Shown piece by piece: positions 10,994 through 32,165 of a DNA stretch of 38,084 bases. A program made the position numbers and the translations under genes. Origin of the DNA: Candidatus Dadabacteria bacterium UBA2774 (GTDB lineage Bacteria > Desulfobacterota_D > UBA1144 > Nemesobacterales > UBA2774); the NCBI GenBank assembly GCA_002352485.1, contig DEIM01000078.1:1-38084 (forward strand), read 5' to 3'. Under the pieces are notes generated by a model. That model saw only the letters and a list, made by a program, of their open reading frames with translations, was not told the origin of the DNA and searched no databases. Position 1 is the first letter of the stretch. Every line of letters starts with the position of its first letter.

Positions 10994-11635
10994 TTAGGAA
11001 AGGCCTATAGCGATATGGACTACATTGGCCAGAAAATGAAAGAGGATACTCGCCCAGAGCGTGCCAGTGGTTAAATAGAGATACCCCATGACTAAAGAGG
11101 GGAAGAAAGTGAGTATGGCCTGAGAGCATAACGAGAGATTATGATTTCCTCCTAGACATAACGTTATAAAATGACCGATTGCAAAGAGCAGGCTTACGAT
11201 TATGACGCCTTTTAAGTTGTTCCCGAGCTTATTCTGAAGGTAGCCTCTGAAAAACACTTCTTCAGGGAGCGCTACCAAAAGGAGCTGTACGAGAATAAAA
11301 GTATAGGAGAGCATACGAAACGAAAGAGATTTGTTTGTATAAAGACCTATGAGCGCTATGGCTCCTGTGTATATGAGGAGTAGGACGACGGAGACTATTA
11401 TCCCGATGATAACCCCTCTTAAATCCCACCTGAGCGCTGAAGAGCCCGTTCCGGTGAAAATAGGTACGGACAGCATTAAAAGGGCTGCAACGGAAGTAAC
11501 ATAGGGCCAGGGGATAAATAACTTCATAGCCACAATAGCTATAATGATTAGTGCGTAAATGGATAACGGGACAAGGTATCTGGACTCGCGAAGACTTGTT
11601 ATCATATGGAAAGCTCGGAATACATTTTCAGGCAA
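10994..11635 (-). CDS. CPBP-family (CAAX protease/Abi-type) intramembrane glutamic protease
   Basis: 213 aa with about 6 hydrophobic segments. Diagnostic motifs EEVFFRGY, FAIGH and HFLAN. The track start is TTG 11635; ATG 11605 is an alternative. Lies only 30 bp downstream of, and co-oriented with, the GT-C gene at 11666-12931. Confidence 0.8.
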   Translation of the reverse strand: MPENVFRAFHMITSLRESRYLVPLSIYALIIIAIVAMKLFIPWPYVTSVAALLMLSVPIFTGTGSSALRWDLRGVIIGIIVSVVLLLIYTGAIALIGLYTNKSLSFRMLSYTFILVQLLLVALPEEVFFRGYLQNKLGNNLKGVIIVSLLFAIGHFITLCLGGNHNLSLCSQAILTFFPSLVMGYLYLTTGTLWASILFHFLANVVHIAIGLS

Positions 11636-11665: not shown

Positions 11666-12931
11666 TCAATAAAGCTGATACAATTCGAATTTATTTATGA
11701 ATAGAACCCCCCAGAGATTTACTAAGATACCGAGAACAATTAATAATTTGTGATACCACTTGAGCTTGTCGGGAATACCCTTAAATGTAAGCAAAAGAAG
11801 AAACGGATAGAAATCGAGTGCATAACGGTAACCGAACTGAGTCCATCCCGTGCCGCTCTTTGTAAAGATCAAAAGAGCCGGGGGGATGATAGCAAGCCAG
11901 CACGCGAGGGCAAGGCGGTTTCTGATTCCAGCGGCGAAAGCGAATATGAACACCGGGGTAGTGATAAGTACACTGAGCCCCACTTTTGACGGGACGATGT
12001 AGGGCCAGCTTTCTATGAAAGCCGGCGGCTGTAGGAGGAAAGTATATAGGTGATGGCGCATATAGGAGAGGCTAAAAAGTCCCTGATCGAACCATGGGGA
12101 TACCTTGGCTTTGGCCTCTGAAATGGTATGCATGGAATACGCGACATCAAATGGCGAGCCGAAGCGTACATAGTTGTAGAGAAAGTTAAGACAGATAAAA
12201 ACCCCGACTCCGAGTGACAAAAGTAAAAGCGGTCTTAATTTAATCCGTTTTAATATAGAGCGACCAGGGGACAAAGGAAGCCAGAGATCTGAGAGCATGA
12301 TTATAAAAAACGGGAGTGTTAAAACTGTCAGAATCCTGGACCAGTATGAAGCCCCTAAAAGAAGACCGATCAAAAATACTCTGCGCTTACCAAAAGTTTC
12401 GTATATAGCGAGAAAGAGGAAAAAGAGCGAGACTATATGCGCAAAATACCAGACCGATCCGATGGTGGACGTGTACCAGTAAATGGTTCCGTATCCAAAG
12501 AGAAGAGTCATCCAAATCTGCTTTTCAAAACTCTCAGTAAGCCTTCTCATTAATAAGAAAACGAGTGAGACATTTATGCTGCCCAGTAATATTGATGCGA
12601 ATACCTGACTAAAAGACAGACCCCATACTGCTACGAACGGTACTAAAAGCAAAGCCGGCATTGGGGGATAAATGGTATATGAGAGGCCGTCTCTTAAGAT
12701 GAGCTCTTCAAAATAAAACGGGGTGTCCTGGAGATAAAGCCTGCCGGCAAGCAGGGCGTCTGCCAGGTATATGAAATAGTTAAAGGGATCGGGGTTAGCA
12801 GGCTGCGTTATAAAATATAAAACAAACGAAAACAAAAAGAATAGTGCTGCTGCAATCAGTGCGGAGTTTCTTTTATAACCCGGATTCGATATATTCATTG
12901 TAACCTTCTTATAAAATAACATTATATTCAA
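11666..12931 (-). CDS. Polytopic GT-C-type glycosyltransferase, PimE/PIG-M-like (GT87/DUF2029-like) by motif; paralogue of 16031-17257
   Basis: 421 aa with at least 9 hydrophobic segments. First-loop motif NYFIYLADALLAGRLYL...SYTIYPPMPALLLVP resembles the acidic/aromatic loop followed by Y.YPP..A.L..P that I recall for PimE/PIG-M-type polyprenyl-P-mannose transferases (not searched). Roughly half the residues are identical to the 16031-17257 product, including the identical block VNVSLVFLLMRRLT and near-identical blocks (FLIGLLLGASYW / FLIGLLLGAAYW; FFIIMLSDLW / FFLIMLSDLW). Alternative starts at M4 and M12 (12898). Confidence 0.55.
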   Translation of the reverse strand: MNIMLFYKKVTMNISNPGYKRNSALIAAALFFLFSFVLYFITQPANPDPFNYFIYLADALLAGRLYLQDTPFYFEELILRDGLSYTIYPPMPALLLVPFVAVWGLSFSQVFASILLGSINVSLVFLLMRRLTESFEKQIWMTLLFGYGTIYWYTSTIGSVWYFAHIVSLFFLFLAIYETFGKRRVFLIGLLLGASYWSRILTVLTLPFFIIMLSDLWLPLSPGRSILKRIKLRPLLLLSLGVGVFICLNFLYNYVRFGSPFDVAYSMHTISEAKAKVSPWFDQGLFSLSYMRHHLYTFLLQPPAFIESWPYIVPSKVGLSVLITTPVFIFAFAAGIRNRLALACWLAIIPPALLIFTKSGTGWTQFGYRYALDFYPFLLLLTFKGIPDKLKWYHKLLIVLGILVNLWGVLFINKFELYQLY

Positions 12932-12992
12932 GCATGAATAGAACGGTCAAGATATTATGGAGATGCGGCTTGATCGATGGCATATATAAGCA

Positions 12993-14084
12993 ATGAACCG
13001 CAAAGACACACTTAAAGAAATACTGCCCGTAATAATCATTACTATATTGGGCACATACTTTTTTTCTTATGTCTCTTACATACTGATTCAAAATCTGTAT
13101 CCCGAAAGCTTGCTTGGAATATGGACAAAATGGGATACAGGAAACTATTTAACAATTGCTGAAAACGGATACGGCTCCTCAGCTAATACACTTATCGCCT
13201 TTTTCCCTCTTTACCCCTACCTCACTAAAGTCTTTACCCTACTCTTTCAGAATTATATGTTGTCCGCCTTAGTAATATCAAATCTGGCATATGCAGTAGC
13301 CGCTTATTTCCTGTACGAGCTAGTAAAACTGGACTATGAGAAAGAAGACGCATTAAGGGCTATAATATATTTGTCCGTTTTCCCGACGGCTTATTTCCTG
13401 CATGCCGCCTATACAGAGAGCTTATTTCTGGCTCTCACGATTTCGAGCTTTTATTACGCAAGAAACGGAAGATGGGCAATTTCGGGCATACTCGGTATGC
13501 TGGCAGCGGCTACAAGAATTACCGGCATCCTGCTTCTCCCGGTGCTCATTGTGGAGTACTTATCACAGAAGAGCTATAAGATAAGGAATATAAGGCCTGA
13601 TCTTTTGTGGATAGGAATAATAGGACTTGGCTTACTCGCATACTTAATCCTGAATTATGTAGTAGCCGGAGATCCGTTTTATTTTCTCGAAGTACAGCAG
13701 GCGAGCTGGTCGAGGAAGATCGCACTTCCGTACGAGGGGTTTGTAAATGCAATTGGCGGAATGCAGGGGCGAGTTCCTTCAGGAGCTCTGACAGGAGACT
13801 GGGCCGAGATCATATTCGCGGCGCTTGGACTTGCAGGAGTTATTTACAGCTTTTTTAGACTACGTCTCTCCTATAGCCTGTACATCTTACTAACCTGGCT
13901 CCTCGTAACTTCGAGCGTGATCTGGCTTAGTATACCGAGGTTTACGCTTACAATGTTTCCGCTGTTTATTCTCATGGCACTGTTTGGCAGGCGCAGAGGT
14001 GTTAACTTCATAATAATTTTCTTCTCACTAATATGCTTTGCTTTATTTTTATCACAGTTTGTAAGGTTCAGGTGGGCTTTTTAG
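12993..14084 (+). CDS. PIG-V/Gpi18-like GT-C mannosyltransferase family membrane protein (copy 1 of a tandem pair)
   Basis: 363-aa polytopic protein. WDTGNYLTIAENGY...IAFFPLYPYL matches the WD..H(Y/F)L.IA..GY...AFFP signature I recall for the PIG-V/Gpi18 family. Stop TAG 14082-14084 is 2 nt before the next start. Confidence 0.65.
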   Translation: MNRKDTLKEILPVIIITILGTYFFSYVSYILIQNLYPESLLGIWTKWDTGNYLTIAENGYGSSANTLIAFFPLYPYLTKVFTLLFQNYMLSALVISNLAYAVAAYFLYELVKLDYEKEDALRAIIYLSVFPTAYFLHAAYTESLFLALTISSFYYARNGRWAISGILGMLAAATRITGILLLPVLIVEYLSQKSYKIRNIRPDLLWIGIIGLGLLAYLILNYVVAGDPFYFLEVQQASWSRKIALPYEGFVNAIGGMQGRVPSGALTGDWAEIIFAALGLAGVIYSFFRLRLSYSLYILLTWLLVTSSVIWLSIPRFTLTMFPLFILMALFGRRRGVNFIIIFFSLICFALFLSQFVRFRWAF

Positions 14085-14086
14085 TT

Positions 14087-15214
14087 ATGAGTAGAAAGAA
14101 ACTTGAAGATATATTAGACATTCTTCCCATCATACTCACAGTTATTATAGGCACATTCCTGTTCGGAATCGCGTCCCACTTGGTGATAGAGAACAGATTT
14201 CCGGACAACATACTTAATTTATGGAATGCCTGGGACGCTCAGCACTATGTAAATATAGCCAAGTACGGATACGCCGCTTTAACTGAAGACGGGAGACACC
14301 TGCAGATCGTGTTCTTCCCGTTATTTCCTTATCTTACCAAATTATTTTCCTTCATCTTTCAGAACTATATCGTCTCTGCCCTTTTCGTATCAAATCTGTC
14401 TTATGCAGCAGCTGCTTATTATCTGTATAAGCTCGTAAAATTAGACTTTGAAAGGCAAGACGCTTACAGGGCTGTTATCTATTTTTCTGTATTCCCGACG
14501 GCTTATTTCCTGCATGCAGCTTATACCGAGAGCTTGTTTCTGGCTCTCACGATTTCGAGTTTTTACTATGCAAGAAACGGGAGGTGGCCTATTGTTGGCG
14601 TACTTGGAACGCTTGCGGCAGCCACAAGAATTACGGGAATACTTCTGGTTCCGATCCTCATAATTGAATACTTATCACAAAAGGACTATAAGATAAGGAA
14701 TATACGGTTGGACATAATCTGGATCGGGGTGATCGGGCTTGGTTTACTCGCCTACCTGATATTAAACTATGTAGTTGCCGGAGACCCGCTGTATTTCATG
14801 GAAATACAAAGAGAGCACTGGAATAAGAAACTTGATTTCCCGTATGAAGGGTTTATAAGCGCATGGAATATTATGACCGGGAAGTTCACGCTTAACATCG
14901 ACACTCCCTCAGCTAGAATGCTTGGGGGCCCGGCTGAGATTATATTCGCGCTCTTAGGACTTTCACTTACTATATATAGTTTTTTCAGGATAAGACTTTC
15001 TTACTGTTTATACGCCCTGGCCACCTGGATTATCGTGACCTCTACAGGGTTCTGGCTGAGTATTCCCCGCTATACGCTTGCCATGTTTCCAATCTTTATA
15101 ACTTTGGCTCTCTTGGGAAGAAGAAAGTATGTCAATTATCTCATAATTTTCATATCGATACTATTCTACGCGCTCTTTTTATCGTCTTTTGTCAGGTTCC
15201 AATGGGCCTTTTAA
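14087..15214 (+). CDS. PIG-V/Gpi18-like GT-C mannosyltransferase family membrane protein (copy 2 of a tandem pair)
   Basis: ATG 14087 (MSRKKLEDIL) is preferred over ATG 14033, which would overlap the previous gene. Motif WDAQHYVNIAKYGY...VFFPLFPYL. About 60-70 percent identical to the upstream paralogue, including a 33-aa identical block. Confidence 0.65.
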   Translation: MSRKKLEDILDILPIILTVIIGTFLFGIASHLVIENRFPDNILNLWNAWDAQHYVNIAKYGYAALTEDGRHLQIVFFPLFPYLTKLFSFIFQNYIVSALFVSNLSYAAAAYYLYKLVKLDFERQDAYRAVIYFSVFPTAYFLHAAYTESLFLALTISSFYYARNGRWPIVGVLGTLAAATRITGILLVPILIIEYLSQKDYKIRNIRLDIIWIGVIGLGLLAYLILNYVVAGDPLYFMEIQREHWNKKLDFPYEGFISAWNIMTGKFTLNIDTPSARMLGGPAEIIFALLGLSLTIYSFFRIRLSYCLYALATWIIVTSTGFWLSIPRYTLAMFPIFITLALLGRRKYVNYLIIFISILFYALFLSSFVRFQWAF

Positions 15215-15324
15215 ACTCGGTTCTATCGTCTAGTACTTCTTAATAGATTTATATCTGTTCTTTCGTACTTAGAACGGAAGTTTCACACTGATATATAAGG
15301 TGTTATTATAATTGACTGAAAATT

Positions 15325-16017
15325 ATGGATATTAGTATTGTCATCCCCACGTATAACGAATCTGAGAATCTGCCTATTCTTATCGATAGAATAGTAAAAG
15401 TCCTTGAACAGAGCGGCATCGAGGGACAAATTATAGTAGTAGACGACGATTCACCCGACAAGACCTGGGAAATTGCCAATGACCTTAATAAGACCTACGG
15501 CAATATAGAGGTAGTGCGAAGACAGGGAAAGAGAGGACTTTCATCCGCGGTGCTCGACGGGTTTACCGAGTCCGGGAGCCCGATACTAGGGGTGATGGAC
15601 GCAGATTTAAGCCATCCGCCAGAGAAGATACCCGAGCTTGTGGAGCCTATATTAAATCGTGAGGCCGATATCACAATAGGAAGCAGGTATATAAACAGTG
15701 GGGAAATAGAGCAATGGCCATTGATGAGAAAATTATCTTCCAAGCTGGCTACACTGGCAGCTTGCAAACTTACCAGCGTTAAAGACCCGATGTCGGGCTT
15801 TTTCTTTCTGAGACGAGAGGTGATTGAGAACATCGAGTTAAACCCCAAAGGGTTTAAAATAGGTCTCGAGATCCTTGTAAGAGGAAAGTACGGAAACGTA
15901 ATAGAGGTACCTATAAAGTTTCGGGATCGAATATACGGGGAAACCAAATTGAGCCAAAAGGTAATTATTGATTACCTGATCCACGTAACTAGGCTATACA
16001 TATATAAAATCTTTTAA
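15325..16017 (+). CDS. GT2 polyprenyl-phosphate mannose synthase-like (Dpm1/Ppm1-type)
   Basis: 230 aa, soluble. Motifs ISIVIPTYNESENL, VVDDDSPDKT, MDADLSHPP (DxD) and DPMSGFFFLRR. Size and motifs are typical of Dpm1/Ppm1-type synthases. Confidence 0.75.
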   Translation: MDISIVIPTYNESENLPILIDRIVKVLEQSGIEGQIIVVDDDSPDKTWEIANDLNKTYGNIEVVRRQGKRGLSSAVLDGFTESGSPILGVMDADLSHPPEKIPELVEPILNREADITIGSRYINSGEIEQWPLMRKLSSKLATLAACKLTSVKDPMSGFFFLRREVIENIELNPKGFKIGLEILVRGKYGNVIEVPIKFRDRIYGETKLSQKVIIDYLIHVTRLYIYKIF

Positions 16018-16030
16018 GACGATATATGAA

Positions 16031-17257
16031 ATGAATATTCGCCTATTTACAAATAAAAATTTTCACATAATAGCGGCTCTTATCTTTTTTTCAGTAACAT
16101 TCTTAGTATATGCCCTAACGGGGGAGGGAAGAAAAACACCATACGACTATTTTGTACCGCTTGCTGACGCGCTCCTACACGGAAGGACATACCTTTTAGA
16201 AAACATCCCCTGGCTCAACGAGCTATTATTAATTGACGGAAGATACTATGTAATTTATCCGCCTGTACCTGCGCTTCTACTACTGCCGCAAGCCGCTATA
16301 TCGGGTATGGAAGCCAATCAGACCCTGGCTTCCGTTTTTTGGGGCAGTGTAAACGTATCATTAGTATTTTTACTGATGAGGCGACTCACAAATAATGTGC
16401 GAATTCAGATTTGGATGACGATCCTTTTTGGCTTCGGGACAATACATTGGTACCTCGCAAGCCTGGGGAAAGCCTGGTTTTTTGCTCATATTACATCTTT
16501 TTTTTTCCTTACAGCCGCAATTTTCGAAACATTGGGTAAAAGACGACCATTTCTAATAGGGCTATTACTGGGAGCCGCATACTGGTGCCGACTGCCAATT
16601 ATACTTTCAGCACCTTTCTTTCTAATAATGCTCTCGGACCTATGGTGGAGAAGGGATAACACTTTAACCCCGCTCAAAAGGATTGATTTGATTCCACTCG
16701 TAAAATTCGGCCTCGGCGTAGGCGTATTTATTATATTGAATTTCGCTTACAACTACATAAGGTTCGGTACTATGGCCGACATCGCCTATGACATTCAAGC
16801 GGCAAGGGAGCCCTGGTTTTACCCAAAAGGCTTATTCCATATATCCTATATTCGAGATCACCTGTGGACCTTTTTTCTCAAACCCCCCGCATTTAGCACA
16901 CAAGCCCCTTACGTCAAACCAGATTATATGGGAATGTCTATTTTAATAACCACGCCTGCATTCATTTATGCTGTTTTTGCGGGAATCAGAAAGAGAATCT
17001 CTCTAGCGTGCTGGGCTGGAATAATACCTGTAGCATTTATATTATTTATCCACGGAGGCGTCGGGTGGCAACAGTTCGGTTATAGATTTGCCCTGGATTT
17101 CTACCCGTATCTCTTAATATTGACGGCGCTTGGGATAAACAGGGGCCTGAAGGCCGAATCGGATTTGGAATGGCACCAAAAAACCCTTATTATAGCAAGT
17201 ATTCTTGTTAACTTGTGGGGGGTTATATGGATAAACAAATTCGGGTGGGTGATATAG
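16031..17257 (+). CDS. Polytopic GT-C-type glycosyltransferase, PimE/PIG-M-like by motif; paralogue of 11666-12931
   Basis: 408 aa. Motif YDYFVPLADALLHGRTYL...YYVIYPPVPALLLLP. Long blocks shared with the 11666-12931 product. Lies 13 bp after the Dpm1-like gene. Confidence 0.55.
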   Translation: MNIRLFTNKNFHIIAALIFFSVTFLVYALTGEGRKTPYDYFVPLADALLHGRTYLLENIPWLNELLLIDGRYYVIYPPVPALLLLPQAAISGMEANQTLASVFWGSVNVSLVFLLMRRLTNNVRIQIWMTILFGFGTIHWYLASLGKAWFFAHITSFFFLTAAIFETLGKRRPFLIGLLLGAAYWCRLPIILSAPFFLIMLSDLWWRRDNTLTPLKRIDLIPLVKFGLGVGVFIILNFAYNYIRFGTMADIAYDIQAAREPWFYPKGLFHISYIRDHLWTFFLKPPAFSTQAPYVKPDYMGMSILITTPAFIYAVFAGIRKRISLACWAGIIPVAFILFIHGGVGWQQFGYRFALDFYPYLLILTALGINRGLKAESDLEWHQKTLIIASILVNLWGVIWINKFGWVI

Positions 17258-17267
17258 TAATTTAACG

Positions 17268-18512
17268 ATGCGTAAATTTCTGGTGGTCTCAATATCGGTA
17301 GTAATCACATTACTCATTTGCGAGGGGGCATTACGTTTTTTAACAAACCAATCCGGAAATAAGCCCCCTATACTTGATATTCAATTCCCGTCTAGAGAGA
17401 TCTTCCCTCATGACCAAATTATGACACCGGAAGAAAAACTGCTGATGAGTAATTATTGGTATAATTTCCTGATTGTAGACGGGGAAAAAATTACAAAGGG
17501 CGATCTTTGGGGGATTCTGAGAGAGGATGACGGGCTCGGCTTCACGGCAAAGGAAAACGCTTCATCTACAAACAGATGGTGGCAATCTAATAATATCGGC
17601 GCTCGGTCAAATGTAATTACTACTAGAGCCAAATCACCCGGCAGGGAGAGGATTCTCCTATTCGGCAACTCTTACGCTCAAGCAAGCAGGGTCCCGCAGA
17701 ACATGACTATAGATTTCTATCTGAACTCGAGAAGGCCGAATATTGAAGCGATTAACTTTGGAGTCGACGGTTATGGTATGGCACAGTCATACTTGCGATT
17801 TAAGATACTCAAAAATGAGCTTGAATACGACAGGGTATTCATGATTTTTGTGCCCGGAGCAGACCTGGAGAGAGAGATTAACGCCAGCAGATACTTAGGG
17901 CTCGGCTGGTTCAGCAGCTATTCTATAACGATCCAACCGAGGTTTGTGATCGAGAACGGAGAGCTAAGCCTTATTCCCAGTCCGTATAAGAACCTTGACG
18001 AGATGATCGAACAAAACGGCGATCATGTATCTGAGAGATTAAAACACCACTTAAGGAAATACGATTCTTTTTATTTCCCGCTCTGGCACGAGGAAACGCC
18101 TGTGCTTGACAAACTATTGCTTGTTAAACTTATTAAGTATGGGTTATACAAACATAGGAAAAACACGATCAACCAAAATTTAATGAATGCCGACTCTGAA
18201 TCGGTACAGATAACAAAAAAAATCACCGAAACGATGGCCAAAGAGGTGGAAGAAGACGGAGGAGCTTTTACTTTGATTGTTCTTCCGACTATATGGGATA
18301 TTCATTATTATCGATCTGATCCAGATTTTAAGCATAAATGGAATGTTATGGTCAGTGAAGTTTGCACATATCAAATTAGTTGTCTGGACATAATGAAAGA
18401 TTTTCAGGCATTGCCTATTGAGTTTTTCGACACCGGTTATGACCAGACGCATTACGGTCCGAAAACCAATAGTCTTATAGCAGACATAATCTTGCGAAAA
18501 AAAATGCAGTGA
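17268..18512 (+). CDS. Membrane-anchored hypothetical protein, possibly an SGNH/GDSL-like esterase or acyltransferase
   Basis: 414 aa. N-terminal anchor MRKFLVVSISVVITLLICEGALRF. Candidate block I LLFGNSYAQAS (GDS-like, with Asn for Asp) and C-terminal block V DQTHYG (DxxH). The assignment is tentative. Confidence 0.4.
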   Translation: MRKFLVVSISVVITLLICEGALRFLTNQSGNKPPILDIQFPSREIFPHDQIMTPEEKLLMSNYWYNFLIVDGEKITKGDLWGILREDDGLGFTAKENASSTNRWWQSNNIGARSNVITTRAKSPGRERILLFGNSYAQASRVPQNMTIDFYLNSRRPNIEAINFGVDGYGMAQSYLRFKILKNELEYDRVFMIFVPGADLEREINASRYLGLGWFSSYSITIQPRFVIENGELSLIPSPYKNLDEMIEQNGDHVSERLKHHLRKYDSFYFPLWHEETPVLDKLLLVKLIKYGLYKHRKNTINQNLMNADSESVQITKKITETMAKEVEEDGGAFTLIVLPTIWDIHYYRSDPDFKHKWNVMVSEVCTYQISCLDIMKDFQALPIEFFDTGYDQTHYGPKTNSLIADIILRKKMQ

Positions 18513-18581
18513 TCATAGCTAAAAATCTTATCTTGACTATTATGCTTTATTGATCCGATATGCTATGTATTCCAAATGAAC

Positions 18582-19199
18582 CTATTTTTTAAACACCAGA
18601 AACTTATATCCCAGGAAATTCCAGGCTACTACTATAAACACGGAGGCAAGGGCTGATATATTAGCCCAGAGCACAGATGATACCCCTCCTATCGGTCCGA
18701 CGAAATTAACCAGAAAAGACGCTACCGCTACGTTTATAACGAAACCCACGCCAGCAACTATGAGAAATTTAAAAAACTGCTTTCCCATACCTTTAGTCTC
18801 AATGCTCTCAAAAGTCCAGAACTTGTTCCATAAATAGCTGTTAGTAGCGGCTGAGAGAAAAGACACCGCTTTAAAAACCGAAAACAAATAACCTTTTTCG
18901 ACACCGGACAAGAATATAAGAAGGTTAAGTATCCCAAAGTCTATTGAGATATTGGACATGCCTATGGGAATGAATTTGCCGAATTGAAAGAGTGAGTGCC
19001 GAAAGGAGCCGAGGCGCGAGAAAACATATACCCATAACGCGACTAAGGGGGGAATAATGATTAGTACAAATGGCCAGTACGTGAGATACGAATGATAGTC
19101 CTCGGGAATTTCGGCTTTTAGGGCATTTAGCATCACCACGGCGAAAACCGATATTATGAGTCCGATAACAAGTGAGGATATTAAGTCTGATCTTTTCAT
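18582..19199 (-). CDS. GtrA-family membrane protein (candidate polyprenyl-phosphate-sugar translocation factor) with an N-terminal 2-TM extension
   Basis: 205 aa. The C-terminal ~130 aa has four hydrophobic segments, the GtrA-type motif [11 protein letters not shown] and a terminal GYKFLVFKK. There are two extra N-terminal hydrophobic segments. Confidence 0.65.
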
Positions 19200-19287
19200 A
19201 ATCTGAGATGTGTAAATTTAAACCGGCCAGAGTATATAGTTACATAATCTTAAGGAATAATAGCATGTACTTGTATGTCCAACGACG

Positions 19288-20601
19288 TTATCTCCAGGAT
19301 TCAAGCCACATATATTGTTCGTGTTTATAATTTTCTATATTTACTGCCGCCGTAATCGGATAAAAATAGAAGAACACTCCAGCCGCTACGAGCAGATATA
19401 GGACCACAAGTATTTTCCCAAATTTAGAATTCGTGTTCCAAAGGCGGTTGAGAAAATAGGCGCTTATTATGAGAATGAAGATGAAAGCGGGCAAAAAATG
19501 GTATAAGAATGTAATCTTTCTCGGAGAGACCGCCCACGGAAGCCAAAGCGCAAGCACGCTTACGACGGCGAATATGAGAGGCGGATACTCTTTTCTAATG
19601 GCCTGAACCGCGCCCAGAACAAAGAATACGCACCCAGTCCACCATATAAACGGGTTGCCGAGCATGTAAATATACGCTCTTATACCTTCCCCTAAATCGT
19701 CATAGTGAAGATATACGGGTTCGAGCAAAAGCGGCCATGTCCACCACAGGGATTCATGGGGGTGATGAGTTTCCACTCCACCGTGGTAACCGTACATTGC
19801 GTCCTGAAGACTGAGGAAATCTACAAATGAATTGCCAAAATAGAAAAAGGGAATGTAAGTGGCAACGTATACAAGTAAAGGCAACACTCCGAATGCGAGA
19901 GCCATTCTCGGAATAATATTTGCAACCGACTTGATATAGGAGCGGTCTTTTGATTCGGACAGGCTGACTTCATAGTAATATATAAGAAAAAAAGAGACCC
20001 CTGCAAGGAATATCCATATGTATACACCACTCCATTTAATAGACATCGAGGCCCCTGCAAATAATCCTGCCAGCATGAGGAACAAGTTCTTTCTAGTTCT
20101 TGCGTATTTTATTACGAATAGAGACGCCAGAAGCAAAAAATCGACCATAAATATATCAACCATAGTTATACGGCTGAGCACGAATATGAATGTATCGAGA
20201 CTATAGAGTACAGCCGCAATCAGTCCCACCCCTTTACTTAGAAAGAGGCTCTTTGCTACAAGGTATATCAGAAGCGCGCCCAAGCCGCCGAAGAATGCCT
20301 GAAAAAACCGCCAGCCGAAGGTATTATTGCCGAATATCTTAATGCCGATTGCGCTCAGCTCCTTACCCAGAGGAGGGTGTGTCCATTCATATGCAAGATC
20401 CTCGGGAGCATGACCGGTATTCTGCCAGGCGTGCTGGTTTCCCTTGGCCATCTCCTGGGCAGTGAAAGCATAATATACTTCGTCGAAATAGTAATTTGGG
20501 GGTATTTCCAAACGGTATAATTTACTGCCGAAGCTGAAAATAAGTACTAAAAACAAGAGAATTTCGAATCTGTATTTATATAGTAGCGAATTTGAAGACA
20601 T
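19288..20601 (-). CDS. PMT/GT39-family protein O-mannosyltransferase-like GT-C enzyme
   Basis: 437 aa. Loop-1 motif YYFDEVYYAFTAQEM (acidic DE pair) and WTHPPLGKELSAIGIKIFG...FGWRF are hallmarks of PMT/GT39 enzymes such as actinobacterial Pmt. Confidence 0.75.
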   Translation of the reverse strand: MSSNSLLYKYRFEILLFLVLIFSFGSKLYRLEIPPNYYFDEVYYAFTAQEMAKGNQHAWQNTGHAPEDLAYEWTHPPLGKELSAIGIKIFGNNTFGWRFFQAFFGGLGALLIYLVAKSLFLSKGVGLIAAVLYSLDTFIFVLSRITMVDIFMVDFLLLASLFVIKYARTRKNLFLMLAGLFAGASMSIKWSGVYIWIFLAGVSFFLIYYYEVSLSESKDRSYIKSVANIIPRMALAFGVLPLLVYVATYIPFFYFGNSFVDFLSLQDAMYGYHGGVETHHPHESLWWTWPLLLEPVYLHYDDLGEGIRAYIYMLGNPFIWWTGCVFFVLGAVQAIRKEYPPLIFAVVSVLALWLPWAVSPRKITFLYHFLPAFIFILIISAYFLNRLWNTNSKFGKILVVLYLLVAAGVFFYFYPITAAVNIENYKHEQYMWLESWR

Positions 20602-20603
20602 TT

Positions 20604-21968
20604 CTAATTTCCTGAATGAATATGTGCCAAGTTCTCTTTAGTGGATTCCAGATGCTCTTTTGAAGCTCCTTCGTATCTGATCGTATTTTTTATAAAATCA
20701 TAGAACAAAAACAAGAAGACAAAAAGGTATAGCAAAAACATCCCGGGTATGAATAAATCTTCATAGCTTTCAGGAATCCCCTTGTATGACGTGGTCAATT
20801 GAATATAGGAATAGACCATATTCAGAACGTAAACAAGGGAGACGATAGCATATAAATACCACAATATCCAATGGCGGTAAGTGAGCAGGGTGAAAAATAC
20901 GATTGCAGGGAGGAGGTGTCTTTCGTGGGCGCGTGTGATAAACAAAAAGAGAGAGAATATAATAAGGGTAATCGCCTGGTATATAAAATAGGAAAAATCC
21001 TTACCGCGCTCTCCGCGGCTTTTGTAGACTACACGGACAAGGAGAGCACCGATCAAAGTATATATAGATGCAAAAATCACTGTACCCCAGCTTTTGTAAG
21101 AGATGCCGAGAAATAAAGTGCCGTCATTCCTCCACATAGCAAAAGATCCCCAGAAATTAAAGGCGTTTAGAGAGGCATATGTGTACTGATCATAGGCTGC
21201 TGAGAATCTGGCTCTGATAAGTTCCAGAGGTCCGGTGAATATATATCCGAAGGCATCGAGCTTGTCCCATATAAAGGGTAGGGTTAGAATTACAGATGTT
21301 ATTACTATTGCCAGTACTACTTTGAGTGTTGGTATAAATGTTTTAATAGTGGGCTTCCTATATTCCCTGAATAAGGGCTCAATGGCGATAAGCCCGATTA
21401 ACGGGAACACCACGATGCTCGGGGGCTTAATCATAAACGCCAGAGCCGCGAATATGCCTGAGAGTACATAACGCCTTCCCAGAGCAGTAATTATGGAAAG
21501 AAGTATGGGCAGGGCATGAAAAGAATCCACCTGCCCCCAAAATGTTGAGTTCGAAAGAGAAGCTGGATTGAAAAGATAGACAACTGAGGCGATCATAGCG
21601 TTTCTGACAGTCGTAATTCGCCTAAGCGCGTAGAATATTGAAACGGATATACCAAGGTCTGCAAGATTTGCCGGTATTTTAAACAGTATATCTGTTAAAA
21701 ATACGGGGAAAGTGGATTTCACCCCGTCAAGCGCCCGCAGGACATAGAGATAGCCGGGCATATAGTCACACCAGAAATTGTCGTAAAATTTGCTAAAGCC
21801 GACCTCTGTAATCTGACTACCCCATATTTTCCAGGTCAGAAAGTCGGGCTCATAAGTAAGGAACAGAGAAAATATAATTCTCAGTAAAAACCCTGCTGCC
21901 AGTATCAGAATAAAACGGATGTAGGGATCTTTCAGGTTTGTGTATCTGCCTGCTTTAGCGGAGCTCAT
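20604..21968 (-). CDS. Polytopic GT-C-type glycosyltransferase (ALG6/ALG8- or Gpi18-related by loop motif)
   Basis: 454 aa with at least 10 hydrophobic segments. First loop EPDFLTWKIWG...FYDNFWCDYMPGYLYVL resembles the D..F..W ... DYPP..Y loop of ALG6/8- and Gpi18-related enzymes (recalled, not searched). ATG 21968 overlaps the upstream GT2 gene by 14 nt. The stop is 2 nt before the PMT-like start. Confidence 0.5.
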   Translation of the reverse strand: MSSAKAGRYTNLKDPYIRFILILAAGFLLRIIFSLFLTYEPDFLTWKIWGSQITEVGFSKFYDNFWCDYMPGYLYVLRALDGVKSTFPVFLTDILFKIPANLADLGISVSIFYALRRITTVRNAMIASVVYLFNPASLSNSTFWGQVDSFHALPILLSIITALGRRYVLSGIFAALAFMIKPPSIVVFPLIGLIAIEPLFREYRKPTIKTFIPTLKVVLAIVITSVILTLPFIWDKLDAFGYIFTGPLELIRARFSAAYDQYTYASLNAFNFWGSFAMWRNDGTLFLGISYKSWGTVIFASIYTLIGALLVRVVYKSRGERGKDFSYFIYQAITLIIFSLFLFITRAHERHLLPAIVFFTLLTYRHWILWYLYAIVSLVYVLNMVYSYIQLTTSYKGIPESYEDLFIPGMFLLYLFVFLFLFYDFIKNTIRYEGASKEHLESTKENLAHIHSGN

Positions 21969-22662
21969 TTCTAAGTTTCCAGGATTCTTTGAACATTCTT
22001 AGTATTACTTTAATATTGGCGCCTGATTGCGTGCCGAATCTTCGGGGAAAGTGGCGTATGGGGAATTCCTTTAGCTTATACCTTTGGTTTTTTAGCTTAA
22101 TTAGAAACTCGGCTGTAAAAAGCGCTCCGCCAGAGATAATGGGTCTAACGGAGCGATAAGCCTTAGTGGGGATGAGCTTAAAAGCGCAGTCCATATCTTT
22201 TACTTTTAGTCCGAACATAAAATATATATACATCGCATAAAACCAAGCGTTCAGTGATCGCACGGGTGAGTCCGCCCTATCTTCTCTATAGCCGATAAAC
22301 ACTTCGCTTTCATTAACTGAGGGCAGCATACGGTCAAGATCGCTTATGTCGAATTGCCCGTCACTATCCATGAAGAATATGTAGTCAAGGGAAGCTTCTT
22401 CAAAACCACTCAGGAGCGCCCCTCCATAACCTCTATTTACTTTGTGGTTAACCATTATGACTGAGGGATTTGTGGATGCGATCTCATCCACAATGCCCCG
22501 GGTATTGTCGCTAGAGCCGTCGTTTACAACTATTACCTCGTAAGTACCAACATTTTTCTCAAGATACGAAACACACTGGTTTACAGTAGTTTCAATATTT
22601 TCCTCTTCATTATGTGCAGGAAGAACTGCGGATAGAGATATATCTGCTCTCATATTATTCAT
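21955..22662 (-). CDS. GT2 polyprenyl-phosphate hexose synthase-like (ALG5/GtrB-type)
   Basis: 235 aa. Motifs LSAVLPAHNEEENI, VVNDGSSDNT, NRGYGGALLSGF, FMDSDGQFD (DxD) and DMDCAFKL (compare D.QCGFK of ALG5/GtrB-type enzymes). Confidence 0.75.
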   Translation of the reverse strand: MNNMRADISLSAVLPAHNEEENIETTVNQCVSYLEKNVGTYEVIVVNDGSSDNTRGIVDEIASTNPSVIMVNHKVNRGYGGALLSGFEEASLDYIFFMDSDGQFDISDLDRMLPSVNESEVFIGYREDRADSPVRSLNAWFYAMYIYFMFGLKVKDMDCAFKLIPTKAYRSVRPIISGGALFTAEFLIKLKNQRYKLKEFPIRHFPRRFGTQSGANIKVILRMFKESWKLRNELR

Positions 22663-24266: not shown

Positions 24267-24272
24267 GGCGCA

Positions 24273-25919: not shown

Positions 25920-26018
25920 ACTCGTGAGCGGTTGATAATATAAAGAACCTATTGCTTTATGTCAATTTATAAGTTATACATTTGCCTTTATTCCACTAGT
26001 AGAAGAGAGGATTTAATT

Positions 26019-26852
26019 ATGAAAAAATTATTGGTACTGCTCATTCTGCCGGCCGTGATTATAGCCGCTTGCGGAGCTCCGGACAAGGGTGAGGATAAAG
26101 CTGAGAATAAGACCGTAAACGAATCGAGCAATAAATCTCCGGAACAAGCGCAAAGCACATTAAAAATAGACCCTAAACCGCAAAGAGACAGTAAAGTGCT
26201 CGCGAGGGTGAATGGGGTACCAATATACGAGGACGAGCTGAAAGGTAGACCATTACAGCATTTGATCACTGAGGAAGTGATTTATCAAAAAGGGCTCGGG
26301 CTCGGACTTGACGAAAAATATGCTGAGAAAGTGCGGGATTACAATAAACAACTGATTGTTCACGATTTAAAAATGGAGGTGCTTGAGAATTTACCTCCTA
26401 CAAAAGAGGTATCTGATGAGGATATTAAAACCTATTATGATAATAACCCTGAAAGGTACACTTTCGTACGTATGCATGAAGTAGGCTTTGTGGATAAAAA
26501 ACTGGGTGATGAAATATTGGCTAAGGTGAAGAGCGGAGAAGACTTGACTGAGATTGTAAATGCTTACGTAGAATCAGGCGCTAATGTAGTAGGCAGGGAC
26601 CTTGGTTTCAACAGAGAGATGGTGAAAAAATTCGACACCGTGGAGCTTGGCTCAGTAACCGATATAATTACCAAGCCTGACGGCTCGTACGGAGTAATTA
26701 AAATTGTGGAGATAAAACCGATCCCCATCCGCCAAACGGAACGCGCTATCAGGCAGCTGCTCGAGGCAAAGAGAAAATCTTACGCAAATGACAATTATGC
26801 AAATCAAATTATAGAGGAAAACGGCGTAGAAGTAGAGATTATAGATAATTAG
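26019..26852 (+). CDS. Parvulin-type peptidyl-prolyl isomerase lipoprotein (PrsA/SurA-like)
   Basis: ATG 26019 with AGAGAGG upstream. Lipoprotein signal MKKLLVLLILPAVIIAAC (lipobox IAAC). C-terminal parvulin-like region (DLGFNREMVKKFDTVELGSVTDIITKPDGSYGVIKIV). Confidence 0.65.
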   Translation: MKKLLVLLILPAVIIAACGAPDKGEDKAENKTVNESSNKSPEQAQSTLKIDPKPQRDSKVLARVNGVPIYEDELKGRPLQHLITEEVIYQKGLGLGLDEKYAEKVRDYNKQLIVHDLKMEVLENLPPTKEVSDEDIKTYYDNNPERYTFVRMHEVGFVDKKLGDEILAKVKSGEDLTEIVNAYVESGANVVGRDLGFNREMVKKFDTVELGSVTDIITKPDGSYGVIKIVEIKPIPIRQTERAIRQLLEAKRKSYANDNYANQIIEENGVEVEIIDN

Positions 26853-26892
26853 CAGCAGTATTTAGAAAAGTGCGGGAGCATTTAGAATAATA

Positions 26893-30828: not shown

Positions 30829-30900
30829 TAATTTATCCTCCTTTTTGAATTTTGTTACGCAATTGTAAGTCATTGTTGTTTACCTTTGTCATTTTTTATT

Positions 30901-31977: not shown

Positions 31978-32165
31978 TGAACCTTTCCTCCTTGTTATAG
32001 TATTGTTGATTATGTTTCCTTTATTCATATACATCCTCCTTTTATTTTTCAAATTTCAGTGAATATCCAGGATTTGCAAGCGTTAGGCAAGCTCCATCTC
32101 CTTTAAATTAGCATAAAAACATCCGCAAAAACACAAACTTATAAACAAATTCACAACTGCACAGA

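What the first reader, a model, noticed from the sequence alone, without database searches (positions are those of the whole stretch)
11666..22662. Dense lipid-carrier-dependent glycosylation island: six GT-C enzymes, two polyprenyl-phosphate-sugar synthases, GtrA and an SGNH-like protein in 11 kb
Eleven consecutive genes look like one extracytoplasmic glycan-assembly machine.
- Two PimE/PIG-M-like GT-C paralogues.
- Two tandem PIG-V-like GT-C paralogues.
- One PMT/GT39-like enzyme with the DE loop.
- One further GT-C with a DYxPxY loop.
- Two soluble GT2 synthases of the Dpm1 and ALG5/GtrB types, which make the lipid-linked monosaccharide donors.
- A GtrA-family protein (donor translocation).
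- A membrane-anchored SGNH-like protein (possible O-acyl modification).

Gene spacing points to tight operons: 2 nt, 13 nt, 10 nt, a 14-nt overlap and 2 nt.

I see no Wzx/Wzy/Wzz, no O-antigen ligase, no initiating phosphoglycosyl transferase and no nucleotide-sugar biosynthesis genes. It therefore does not look like a classical O-antigen or capsule locus. This concentration of GT-C enzymes is known mainly from actinobacterial LM/LAM/PIM assembly and from eukaryotic ER pathways. Its product and acceptor here are unknown.
Basis: partly seen in the sequence, partly recalled or inferred. Interest (0 to 1): 0.8.

Follow-up and report, generated by a model that had tools for sequence, protein, structure and literature searches.

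The report
Dadabacteria periplasmic glycosylation gene island
Ten neighbouring genes in an uncultured Dadabacteria genome encode a sugar-attaching machine that works outside the cytoplasm from lipid-carried sugars, with six membrane transferases (two from an undescribed family), and it probably decorates cell-surface proteins.

Summary
Window 11666-22662 carries ten genes, not eleven:
- six polytopic GT-C-fold glycosyltransferases;
- two TM-less GT2 polyprenyl-phosphate-sugar synthases;
- a GtrA/DPMS_TM protein;
- a membrane-anchored SGNH protein.

All five quoted gene spacings are exact.

Family assignments:
- g8 is a PMT (GT39-type) enzyme.
- g2/g3 are PIG-V-like.
- g9 is ALG6/PIG-M-like by profile and by structure.
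- g4 matches the catalytic domain of archaeal Dol-P-Man synthase (E 5e-70).
- g1/g5 have no Pfam family but model confidently as GT-C. They are an orphan family, not specifically PimE/PIG-M-like, and occur in at least 561 loci across bacteria and archaea.

The block sits at the same chromosomal place in about 18 Dadabacteria species genomes, with variable copy numbers. In some relatives g4 is fused to g5. No Wzx, Wzy, WaaL or nucleotide-sugar genes are present.

Most likely function (inferred): stepwise periplasmic O-glycosylation of secreted proteins. Candidate acceptors are Pro/Thr-rich linkers in a Dadabacteria-specific surface-protein family. That family carries an unmodelled Cys-containing C-terminal sorting signal. 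A myxosortase-like protease gene abuts the island.

Verdict: a new variant of a known kind. Interest is moderate to high.

The parts
11666..12898 (-). g1: orphan GT-C-fold glycosyltransferase (410 aa), paralogue of g5; 30 nt upstream of the myxosortase-like gene on the same strand
   Evidence: 55% identical to g5. No Pfam hit. Weak NCBIfam hit to LA_3751/LA_3752 putative GT, 26.7 bits against a cutoff of 200. The 410-aa start is taken from the gene call. About 11 hydrophobic segments.
12993..14084 (+). g2: PIG-V-like (GT76-like)/PMT_2 GT-C enzyme, 363 aa
   Evidence: PF13231 at 39.8 bits and PF04188 at 37.4 bits, both above the gathering score. The family has invariant W47 D48 Y52 A56 Y60.
14087..15214 (+). 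g3: tandem paralogue of g2, 375 aa
   Evidence: 62% identical to g2. PF13231 and PF04188. Most relatives carry only one copy.
15325..16017 (+). g4: TM-less GT2 polyprenyl-phosphate-mannose-synthase-like enzyme (DPMS/Dpm1/Ppm1 type), 230 aa
   Evidence: Matches P. furiosus DPMS 5mlz at E 4.9e-70, residues 1-225 against 23-247. PF00535. No TM segment. Fused in frame to a g5-type GT-C in P0015 (61% identity).
16031..17257 (+). g5: orphan GT-C-fold glycosyltransferase, 408 aa
   Evidence: AF2 pLDDT 90.6, pTM 0.91. Foldseek top hits are all GT-C: AglB 3.5e-5, ArnT, ALG12, Pmt4, ALG9. No Pfam, NCBIfam or PDB sequence hit. Family invariants are E64 (E/D in 100%), W149, R187, R244, QFGYR352 and D356.
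17268..18512 (+). g6: N-terminally anchored SGNH-type esterase/acyltransferase-like protein, 414 aa; lineage-specific accessory
   Evidence: Invariant F132-G133-x-S135, N163, G168, and D392-x-x-H395. Homologues hit PF13472, and one is named an SGNH/GDSL hydrolase. The family profile weakly matches TesA/GDSL structures. Present only in L001/L002 among the Dadabacteria loci.
18582..19199 (-). g7: GtrA/DPMS_TM-family membrane protein, 205 aa
   Evidence: PF04138 at 66.5 bits, covering the full profile. 5-6 hydrophobic segments.
19288..20601 (-). g8: PMT (GT39-type) GT-C enzyme without MIR domains, 437 aa
   Evidence: PF02366 at 73 bits, PF16192 at 79 bits, PF13231 at 65 bits. Nearest NCBIfam model is the actinobacterial Pmt equivalog at E 7e-31, far below its cutoff. 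FDEVYY motif at residues 39-44.
20604..21968 (-). g9: ALG6/PIG-M/GT87-like GT-C enzyme, 454 aa; start overlaps g10 by 14 nt
   Evidence: Family profile against PDB: ALG6 6snh at 1.3e-10, GPI-MT-I at 4e-10. AF2 pLDDT 93.8. Foldseek: ALG6 TM 0.68/0.65, GPI-MT-I 0.62/0.69. Pfam GT87 is below cutoff for g9 itself, but 23 of 60 family members hit it.
21955..22662 (-). g10: TM-less GT2 polyprenyl-phosphate-sugar synthase (ArnC/GtrB-like), sugar unknown, 235 aa
   Evidence: ArnC structures at 8e-14, GtrB sll0501 at 8.6e-11, DPMS at 1e-10. PF00535. No TM segment.
10994..11635 (-). Possibly associated: CPBP/Rce1-like intramembrane protease, myxosortase-like
   Evidence: PF02517. The top NCBIfam hits are all myxosortase models (MrtP 74 bits, Mrt_core 73 bits, MrtC, MrtS), all below their cutoffs. 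EExxxR, FxxxH and HxxxN motifs are present. Found in 20 of 23 Dadabacteria loci, usually beside g1.
28843..30828 (-). Candidate acceptor (inferred): secreted 661-aa surface protein with a Pro/Thr-rich linker and a Cys-containing C-terminal sorting signal
   Evidence: Translation. 79 Dadabacteria homologues share a PT-rich linker followed by the near-invariant SCAIAGxPVQLGTAxANVLIPLVPVAFxFGxRAxRRRKK. No NCBIfam or Pfam model hits it.

Best explanation
The island is an extracytoplasmic glycosylation system that depends on polyprenyl-phosphate monosaccharides. It most likely O-glycosylates secreted or surface proteins.

Cytoplasmic face:
- g4, a DPMS-type GT2, makes polyprenyl-P-mannose from GDP-Man.
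- g10, an ArnC/GtrB-type GT2, makes a second polyprenyl-P-sugar of unknown identity.
- Both synthases lack TM helices. The GtrA/DPMS_TM protein g7 anchors or partners them and/or helps move the lipid-linked sugars to the outer leaflet.

Periplasmic face:
- The PMT-type GT-C g8 puts the first sugar on Ser/Thr of Sec-exported proteins.
- The other five GT-Cs extend or branch the chain one sugar at a time. These are orphan g1/g5, PIG-V-like g2/g3 and ALG6/PIG-M-like g9.
- g5 is fed by g4, and g9 is fed by g10.
- In this lineage the SGNH protein g6 adds or removes an O-acyl group.

The likeliest acceptors are the Pro/Thr-rich linkers that precede the Cys-containing C-terminal membrane anchor of an abundant Dadabacteria surface-protein family. 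The adjacent myxosortase-like protease would process that anchor.

Shown: the fold and family of each protein, the operon layout, the conservation of the block, and the g4-g5 fusion. Inferred: the sugar identities, the order of steps, the flippase role and the acceptor.
For: Component identities.

Operon coupling: g10-g9 overlap by 14 nt, g9-g8 are 2 nt apart, g4-g5 are 13 nt apart, g5-g6 are 10 nt apart.

In-frame fusion of g4 to a g5-type GT-C in P0010, P0013 and P0015.

The block is conserved in about 18 Dadabacteria species representatives with variable paralogue numbers.

The same GT-C types co-cluster independently in Chloroflexota, Pseudanabaena and Patescibacteria. 37 of 62 loci have another island-type GT-C within 10 kb, and 27 of these are PMT-like.

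GT39 enzymes are known only as protein O-mannosyltransferases. They use PPM made by Ppm1 and act on S/T-rich linkers (PMC5882110, PMC11727336).

PT-rich linker plus Cys-CTERM proteins lie 6 kb away and are multi-copy in Dadabacteria.

A myxosortase-like gene lies 30 nt downstream of g1.

Haft notes that Thr/Ser-rich stretches before Cys-CTERM signals suggest O-glycosylation (10.1101/2023.06.07.544157).
Against: There is no biochemical evidence.

The acceptor link rests on adjacency within a phylum whose synteny here also spans housekeeping genes (nadE, gltB, thiI). Adjacency alone is therefore weak evidence.

Most paralogous surface-protein genes lie about 130 kb from the island in the 2.67-Mb genome.

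g8 scores far below the curated Pmt equivalog cutoff (107.6 against 800 bits) and has no phmmer hit to solved PMTs.

g8 is co-operonic with g10, not with the DPMS-like g4, so its donor may not be mannose.

The eukaryotic relatives of g2/g3 and g9 (PIG-V, PIG-M, ALG6) act on lipid-linked glycans, not on proteins.

The myxosortase assignment is below NCBIfam cutoffs.
Confidence: 0.5

Rival explanations
1. Lipoglycan or glycolipid assembly, analogous to LM/LAM, PIM or GPI. The GT-Cs extend a lipid-anchored glycan on the periplasmic face from polyprenyl-P-sugars. The product is a surface lipoglycan rather than a glycoprotein.
For: g2/g3 match PIG-V. g9 matches ALG6, GPI-MT-I and PimE. All of those enzymes act on lipid-linked acceptors. 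Multiple mannosyltransferase-like paralogues resemble the MptA/B/C logic of actinobacteria (own knowledge).
Against: The window has no cytoplasmic GT4/PimA/PimB-type initiator, no acyltransferase of the PIM pathway and no Emb/Aft homologues. A bona fide PMT + PMT_4TMC enzyme sits in the core operon.
Confidence: 0.22
2. The island is a collection of separate three-component (GtrABC-like) systems. Each adds a side-branch sugar to a pre-made polysaccharide that is encoded elsewhere, such as LPS O-antigen or core, capsule, or a peptidoglycan-linked polymer.
For: GT2 synthase + GtrA + GT-C is the defining trio of such systems (PMC11127046). Paralogue number varies between species, as expected for antigenic diversification. 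G+C is slightly lower than in the flanks. A g6 homologue lies inside a Wzx-type polysaccharide locus elsewhere. In Patescibacteria, g5-type genes sit near LCP and MurJ genes.
Against: There are six GT-Cs for only two synthases and one GtrA. The block occupies a fixed chromosomal site in the core genome and is not inside any polysaccharide locus. GT39 has no known polysaccharide acceptor.
Confidence: 0.2
3. The polytopic proteins are not glycosyltransferases. They would be transporters, O-antigen ligases or polymerases, or inactive scaffolds like PIG-U.
For: PIG-U, a non-catalytic GT-C-like subunit of GPI transamidase, is among the structural matches of g9 and g5. 8 of 60 g9-family members hit Pfam PIG-U.
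Against: The top structural and profile hits are catalytic GT-Cs. Acidic residues are conserved in the first outer loop: E64 in g1/g5, D48 in g2/g3, DE in g8, and D42/D68 in g9. Transporters and WaaL score at noise level. The genes are tightly coupled to lipid-sugar synthases and fused with one.
Confidence: 0.03

Closest known systems
Actinobacterial protein O-mannosylation (Ppm1 polyprenyl-P-mannose synthase + Pmt/GT39; PMC5882110, PMC11727336)
   Same: A DPMS/Ppm1-type GT2 (g4) is paired with a MIR-less bacterial-type PMT carrying PMT + PMT_4TMC domains and the DE motif (g8). The donor is lipid-linked and transfer is extracytoplasmic. Pro/Thr-rich linkers are the likely acceptors.
   Different: The phylum is unrelated (Dadabacteria/Thermodesulfobacteriota). 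All genes sit in one island with five further GT-Cs, a second synthase, GtrA and an SGNH protein. g8 is very distant from the curated Pmt equivalog (107.6 against 800 bits). g8 is co-operonic with the non-DPMS synthase.
Three-component periplasmic glycosylation systems (GtrA/GtrB/GtrC; GT136 pentofuranose systems, PMC11127046)
   Same: The logic is the same: a GT2 polyprenyl-P-sugar synthase, a small membrane protein or flippase, and a GT-C transferase acting outside the cytoplasm.
   Different: Those systems add single side-branch residues to O-antigens and usually have one GT-C per synthase. Here there are six GT-Cs, two TM-less synthases and no associated polysaccharide locus.
Eukaryotic ER-lumenal Dol-P-sugar pathways (DPM1, ALG6/8, PIG-M, PIG-V, PMT)
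   Same: Homologues or fold relatives of DPM1/DPMS (g4), ALG6/PIG-M (g9), PIG-V (g2/g3) and PMT (g8) act together downstream of lipid-phosphate-sugar donors.
   Different: The genes are bacterial and operon-encoded. No OST/STT3 or LLO-initiating enzymes are present. Similarities are at superfamily level (12-17% identity in structural alignments). Acceptors are unknown.
Mycobacterial PIM/LM/LAM assembly (PimE GT87, MptA-C, Emb, Aft)
   Same: Several PPM-dependent GT-C mannosyltransferases act in series on the outer face of the membrane.
   Different: No GT4 PimA/B, no Emb/Aft and no DPA pathway. g9 is only weakly GT87-like (18 bits, below the cutoff of 25). In the g5 search, PimE ranks 20-21 with E above 0.1.
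Myxosortase / MYXO-CTERM sorting (Haft 2023 preprint; PMC11980579). Applies to the flanking gene and the candidate acceptor only.
   Same: A CPBP-family protease with EExxxR and HxxxN motifs. Substrates have a tripartite C-terminal signal: a Cys signature, a TM helix and a basic cluster, preceded by a low-complexity S/T/P-rich region.
   Different: The signal sequence (SCAIAGxPVQLGTA...RRRKK) matches no existing CTERM model. The protease scores below the myxosortase cutoffs. No link to glycosylation genes has been reported for myxosortases.

Membership tests
GT39 / PMT (g8) | PMT N-terminal domain (PF02366) and PMT C-terminal 4-TM region (PF16192), both above Pfam gathering scores | tested here: met
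   73.1 bits (cutoff 22.7) and 79.1 bits (cutoff 32.4)
GT39 / PMT (g8) | Asp-Glu motif in the first extracytoplasmic loop | tested here: met
   FDEVYY at residues 39-44 in the translation
GT39 / PMT (g8) | Scores as the curated bacterial Pmt equivalog (NF058602) | tested here: not met
   107.6 bits against a cutoff of 800. No phmmer hit to solved PMTs at E of 0.01 or less.
GT39 / PMT (g8) | Transfers mannose from polyprenyl-P-Man to protein Ser/Thr | not testable with these tools
   Needs an enzyme assay or glycoproteomics
GT-C fold superfamily (g1/g5) | Polytopic fold superposable on solved GT-C enzymes | tested here: met
   Model pLDDT 90.6. The top 28 Foldseek hits are all GT-C-fold proteins, nearly all enzymes (three are the non-catalytic PIG-U subunit). 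The best are AglB at 3.5e-5 and ArnT at 4.1e-5, with TM about 0.5.
GT-C fold superfamily (g1/g5) | Conserved acidic residue in the first extracytoplasmic loop | tested here: met
   E64 is E or D in 101 of 101 family members; D46 in only 65%. The position in loop EL1 is inferred from the model's secondary structure.
   No Pfam or NCBIfam GT87/PIG-M hit. No precomputed Pfam on 120 homologues. GPI-MT-I ranks 18 (E 0.047) and PimE ranks 20-21 (E 0.11-0.13).
GT76 / PIG-V (g2/g3) | PF04188 Mannosyl_trans2 above the gathering score | tested here: met
   37.4 and 33.9 bits against a cutoff of 22.4. Only profile positions 46-244 of 443 are covered, and PF13231 scores equally well.
GT76 / PIG-V (g2/g3) | Structural or profile match to a solved PIG-V-type enzyme | tested here: inconclusive
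   The family profile found no PDB sequence at E of 10 or less.
GT57 (ALG6/ALG8) / GT50 / GT87 (g9) | Homology to ALG6 or PIG-M detectable by profile and by fold | tested here: met
   ALG6 at 1.3e-10 over profile positions 32-394 (A3 family profile); GPI-MT-I at 4e-10. Foldseek TM 0.68 and 0.62.
GT57 (ALG6/ALG8) / GT50 / GT87 (g9) | Passes the curated threshold of any one of these Pfam families | tested here: not met
   GT87 at 18.1 bits against a cutoff of 25 for g9. Family members scatter over GT87 (23/60), PMT_2 (13), PIG-U (8), Alg6_Alg8 (7) and ALG3 (3).
Polyprenyl/dolichyl-phosphate mannose synthase (g4) | Full-length similarity to the catalytic domain of a characterised DPMS | tested here: met
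   5mlz at E 4.9e-70 and 238.8 bits, residues 1-225 against 23-247
Polyprenyl/dolichyl-phosphate mannose synthase (g4) | C-terminal TM domain as in archaeal type DPMS | tested here: not met
   230 aa with no hydrophobic segment. A separate PF04138 GtrA/DPMS_TM protein (g7) is encoded in the island.
GtrABC-type three-component system | GT2 polyprenyl-P-sugar synthase + GtrA-family protein + GT-C encoded together | tested here: met
   g10/g4, g7 and g8/g9
GtrABC-type three-component system | Association with a polysaccharide (O-antigen) locus or prophage | tested here: not met
   No Wzx/Wzy/WaaL, nucleotide-sugar or phage genes in the 38-kb window
SGNH/GDSL hydrolase superfamily (g6) | Block I Gly-x-Ser nucleophile and block V Asp-x-x-His, both conserved | tested here: met
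   F132-G133-N-S135 and D392-Q-T-H395. S135 and H395 are invariant in 31 sequences.
SGNH/GDSL hydrolase superfamily (g6) | Pfam/NCBIfam model hit for the protein itself | tested here: not met
   No hit. Ten homologues carry PF13472. The family profile gives weak TesA hits at E 0.02-0.04.
Actinobacterial PIM/LM/LAM pathway | GT4 PimA/PimB initiators and Emb/Aft arabinosyltransferases | tested here: not met
   None in the window
Myxosortase family (flanking Rce1-like gene) | Passes the NCBIfam Mrt_core or Mrt equivalog cutoffs | tested here: not met
   The best hits are all Mrt models, but at 73-74 bits against cutoffs of 100-250.
Myxosortase family (flanking Rce1-like gene) | Genome encodes proteins with a Cys-signature + TM + basic-cluster C-terminal signal | tested here: met
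   Window 28843-30828 and 70+ homologues. The signal was seen on one protein family only.

The most novel reading that the evidence does not exclude
Dadabacteria build a multi-sugar, possibly branched, O-glycan entirely on the periplasmic face. They do so one residue at a time from two polyprenyl-phosphate monosaccharide donors. The enzymes are a PMT, ALG6/PIG-M-like and PIG-V-like transferases, and a previously unrecognised GT-C family (g1/g5) that is widespread in bacteria and archaea. The acceptors are the membrane-proximal Pro/Thr linkers of surface proteins that carry a new Cys-containing C-terminal sorting signal, which the neighbouring myxosortase-like protease cleaves. This would be a bacterial counterpart of ER-lumenal glycan elongation, genetically linked to a C-terminal protein-sorting system.
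Probability: 0.3. Interest if true: 0.8.

Novelty: new variant of a known kind. Interest (0 to 1): 0.6.

Why it matters
Outside Actinobacteria, bacterial GT39 enzymes and multi-GT-C pathways are essentially unstudied. PMC11727336 notes GT39 in more than 3,800 bacterial genomes with minimal characterisation.

This island offers:
- a compact, conserved, operon-encoded set of DPM1-, PMT-, ALG6/PIG-M- and PIG-V-like enzymes in a deep-branching uncultured phylum, which bears on the prokaryotic roots of ER-lumenal glycosylation;
- an orphan GT-C family with a confident model, a clear invariant motif set and a natural fusion to its presumed donor synthase, which is a ready target for biochemical definition and a new CAZy/Pfam family;
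- concrete candidate acceptors, which make the pathway testable by heterologous expression;
- a possible genetic link between surface-protein sorting and glycosylation.

Tried and rejected
- Sequence-only searches of g5, g6, g8 and g9, and of the g1/g5 and g2/g3 family profiles, against PDB chains gave nothing usable. Only the g9 profile and the GT2s gave hits.
- hhalign of the g1/g5 profile against the g9 profile showed only a marginal local match (probability 50%). The two are separate GT-C families.
- Transporter, WaaL or Wzy identity was rejected. Those hits are at noise level in Foldseek.
- Neighbourhood clustering of non-Dadabacteria loci found mostly lineage-specific synteny (UvrD, LCP, MurJ, PilN/O in Woesebacteria). 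It gave no universal partner beyond other GT-Cs.
- I looked for the C-terminal sorting signal on unrelated proteins. It was found only on architecture variants of one family, so 'portable sorting signal' remains unproven.
- Known CTERM models do not match the signal.
- The surface-protein genes are not strictly linked to the island. They form tandem arrays about 130 kb away in another genome.
- The genomic context of g6 homologues is mixed: one lies in a polysaccharide locus and one next to an LMF1-like gene.
- Four literature searches for Dadabacteria glycosylation, for GT-C in CPR/Chloroflexi, and for LA_3751/AZOBR_p60025/GT76 found nothing relevant.
- Promoter and terminator scans were not above shuffle expectation and were not used.

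Full report
**1. What is there**

The interval 11666-22662 holds ten ORFs. Gene calls on public contigs that carry identical proteins agree. The genes form three transcription groups.
- Minus strand: g10 (21955-22662), g9 (20604-21968), g8 (19288-20601), g7 (18582-19199).
- Plus strand: g2 (12993-14084), g3 (14087-15214), g4 (15325-16017), g5 (16031-17257), g6 (17268-18512).
- g1 (11666-12898, minus) is divergent from g2. It lies 30 nt upstream of an Rce1-like gene on the same strand.

A simple hydropathy scan finds no TM segment in g4 or g10, one N-terminal segment in g6, and 7-12 segments in the six large proteins.

**2. What each gene is**

- **g8** carries PF02366 (PMT), PF16192 (PMT_4TMC) and PF13231, all well above threshold. 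It has FDEVYY in the first loop. Its nearest NCBIfam model is the actinobacterial Pmt equivalog (E 7e-31), but it scores far below that model's cutoff.
- **g2 and g3** are 62% identical. Both pass the PIG-V (PF04188) and PMT_2 thresholds. Their family has an invariant W-D...Y...A...Y block.
- **g9** has only a sub-threshold GT87 hit on its own. A profile of 60 relatives, drawn from 3,239 representative clusters, matches yeast ALG6 at 1.3e-10 and GPI mannosyltransferase I at 4e-10. Its AlphaFold model (pLDDT 93.8) superposes best on ALG6 (TM 0.68/0.65) and GPI-MT-I (0.62/0.69).
- **g1 and g5** are 55% identical. They have no Pfam, NCBIfam or PDB sequence match, and their 120 best homologues are all "hypothetical". 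The g5 model (pLDDT 90.6, pTM 0.91) matches GT-C enzymes almost exclusively: AglB, ArnT, ALG12, Pmt4, ALG9, DPY19 and EmbB. GPI-MT-I and PimE rank only 18-21. These two are therefore GT-C enzymes of an orphan family, not specifically PimE/PIG-M-like. Across 101 members the first outer loop keeps an acidic residue at E64 (100% E/D). W149, R187, R244, the QFGYR352 motif and D356 are nearly invariant.
- **g4** matches the catalytic domain of Pyrococcus Dol-P-Man synthase at E 4.9e-70.
- **g10** is closer to ArnC and GtrB, so its sugar cannot be named.
- **g7** is a full-length PF04138 "GtrA/DPMS_TM" protein. It belongs to the same family as the membrane domain that g4 lacks.
- **g6** has the SGNH block I Ser and block V DxxH conserved in all 31 relatives. 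Several of those relatives hit PF13472.

**3. Surroundings**

The rest of the window is housekeeping: glutamate synthase, NadE, ThiI, TruA, an ABC permease and response regulators. It also holds a few envelope-related genes.

**4. Distribution**

Homologues place the window in Candidatus Dadabacteria, which NCBI labels Thermodesulfobacteriota. The block sits between nadE/Rce1-like and FG-GAP/GMC genes in 23 Dadabacteria loci, about 18 species representatives. Its content varies:
- one to three g1/g5 paralogues;
- one or two PIG-V-like genes;
- one to three g9-type genes;
- g6 only in the window's own species.

In some genomes g4 is fused in frame to a g5-type GT-C (P0015, 61% identical to g4 over its full length). 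This fusion links that GT-C to the DPMS-type donor.

The g1/g5 family is broad. It gave at least 561 confirmed loci among GTDB species genomes, in Patescibacteria, Chloroflexota, Pseudanabaena, Bathyarchaeia and Nitrososphaerota. In 37 of 62 non-Dadabacteria loci another island-type GT-C lies within 10 kb; 27 of these are PMT-like. A Dehalococcoidia locus repeats GT2, g9-type, PMT, g1-type and PIG-V-like genes (L077). The families therefore co-cluster independently of Dadabacteria synteny.

**5. Mechanism**

The system fits the logic of extracytoplasmic glycosylation from polyprenyl-phosphate monosaccharides. Known examples are the GtrABC-type three-component systems (PMC11127046) and the actinobacterial Ppm1/Pmt pathway (PMC5882110).
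- Two cytoplasmic synthases load mannose (g4) and a second sugar (g10) onto polyprenyl phosphate.
- g7 anchors the synthases and/or assists translocation of the lipid-linked sugars.
- Six GT-Cs then transfer sugars on the periplasmic side.

Translational coupling pairs g10 with g9 and g8. The fusion and the 13-nt spacing pair g4 with g5. Sugar identities, the order of steps and the flippase role are all inferred.

**6. Acceptor**

GT39 enzymes are known only as protein O-mannosyltransferases, and they act on S/T-rich linkers (PMC11727336). Three observations point to protein acceptors here.
- Six kilobases from the island, ORF 28843-30873 (mature gene call 28843-30828, 661 aa) encodes a secreted protein. 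It ends in a Pro/Thr-rich linker, a Gly/Ser run, and SCAIAGNPVQLGTAFANVLIPLVPVAFVFGIRAMRRRKK.
- This protein has 79 homologues, all from Dadabacteria-type MAGs, with at least 11 on one 2.67-Mb contig. Nearly all full-length homologues keep the linker, and their last 40 residues are almost invariant even though the proteins are only 42-80% identical overall. No Pfam or NCBIfam model matches it.
- The design is a Cys signature, a TM helix and a basic cluster. That is the design of the myxosortase-processed signals (10.1101/2023.06.07.544157; PMC11980579). The best NCBIfam hits of the Rce1-like gene next to g1 are all myxosortase models, though all are below their cutoffs.

While such a protein is tethered by its C-terminal helix, the linker lies at the membrane surface, where GT-C active sites sit. 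I therefore favour protein O-glycosylation of these linkers.

This step is inference, and it has caveats:
- Synteny in this phylum also spans housekeeping genes, so adjacency is weak evidence.
- Other copies of the surface-protein genes lie far from the island.
- The signal was seen on one protein family only.

**7. Rivals**

- A lipoglycan pathway. This fits the PIG-V, PIG-M and ALG6 relatives, but the window has no initiating GT4.
- Several side-branch systems that modify a polysaccharide encoded elsewhere. This fits the copy-number variation, the slightly lower G+C and one g6 homologue inside a Wzx-type locus. It does not fit six GT-Cs sharing two synthases at a fixed core-genome site.
- A non-glycosyltransferase identity is essentially excluded.

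**8. Novelty**

The following appear to be new; four literature searches found no description:
- this combination and density of GT-Cs in a non-actinobacterial phylum;
- the orphan g1/g5 family and its fusion to a DPMS-type synthase;
- the possible link to a new Cys-type C-terminal sorting system.

I rate it a new variant of a known kind, with interest 0.6.

Noticed in passing
window 28843-30873 (-): A secreted 661/676-aa protein with no Pfam or NCBIfam match. It ends in a Pro/Thr-rich linker plus a near-invariant Cys-containing C-terminal signal: SCAIAGxPVQLGTAxANVLIPLVPVAFxFGxRAxRRRKK. It has 79 Dadabacteria-only homologues, with at least 11 paralogues in one genome. No existing CTERM model matches, so this looks like an undescribed sorting signal.
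   Followed up: partly
window 10994-11635 (-): A CPBP/Rce1-like intramembrane protease 30 nt downstream of g1. Its best NCBIfam hits are all myxosortase models (MrtP, Mrt_core, MrtC, MrtS), though all are below their cutoffs. It has EExxxR, FxxxH and HxxxN motifs. It is present in 20 of 23 Dadabacteria loci, usually next to the island.
   Followed up: partly
window 30901-32052 (-); L086 8906-18610: A 383-aa protein that shares a weak N-terminal similarity with the CTERM protein (28% identity over 110 aa, E 3e-8) but has no anchor. It sits directly upstream of the CTERM protein gene. In another Dadabacteria genome, a ~345-aa gene (not compared here) precedes each ~650-aa gene, and this pair is repeated three times in tandem. 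This suggests a two-component surface structure.
   Followed up: partly
window 33044-35992 (+): A 982-aa S41 C-terminal-processing peptidase with PDZ and CARDB-like regions. It passes the cutoff of TIGR03900 (MXAN_5808 family, 'prc_long_Delta'), a family named after Myxococcus. It lies next to the CTERM surface-protein genes here and in a sister species (L087).
   Followed up: no
window 22689-27423: A secreted FG-GAP/UnbV_ASPIC protein (26 nt upstream of g10) and a GMC oxidoreductase (6 nt further upstream) are probably co-transcribed with the g10-g7 operon. Both are syntenic in all Dadabacteria loci. A gluconate-2-dehydrogenase-subunit-3-like gene lies nearby at 26893-27423. Together these could form a periplasmic sugar or glycoside dehydrogenase.
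   Followed up: no
P0010, P0013, P0015 (L006 10001-11941): Natural in-frame fusions of the DPMS-like GT2 (g4) to a g5-type GT-C, about 646 aa long. Many g9-family members are also fused, either to an N-terminal extension of about 250 aa or to long C-terminal extensions (800-1,300 aa proteins).
   Followed up: partly
L008, L015, L019, L030, L031, L035 and others: Several 'binchicken' MAG records labelled Spirochaetia or Gammaproteobacteria carry loci that are syntenic with Dadabacteria or that resemble the Woesebacteria/Patescibacteria loci in gene content. Their organism labels look unreliable.
   Followed up: no
L088 6289-9254: A g6-family SGNH protein in a Thermodesulfobacteriota MAG sits divergently next to a bacterial LMF1 (lipase maturation factor 1) homologue, which is an unusual pairing.
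   Followed up: no
L033, L038, L039: In Bathyarchaeota and in one MAG labelled Gammaproteobacteria (L039; label doubtful, possibly Patescibacteria) with a g5-type GT-C, nearby ORFs encode large proteins with Ser/Thr/Pro-rich linkers followed by a C-terminal TM helix and a basic tail. This is anecdotal, because no background rate was computed.
   Followed up: no
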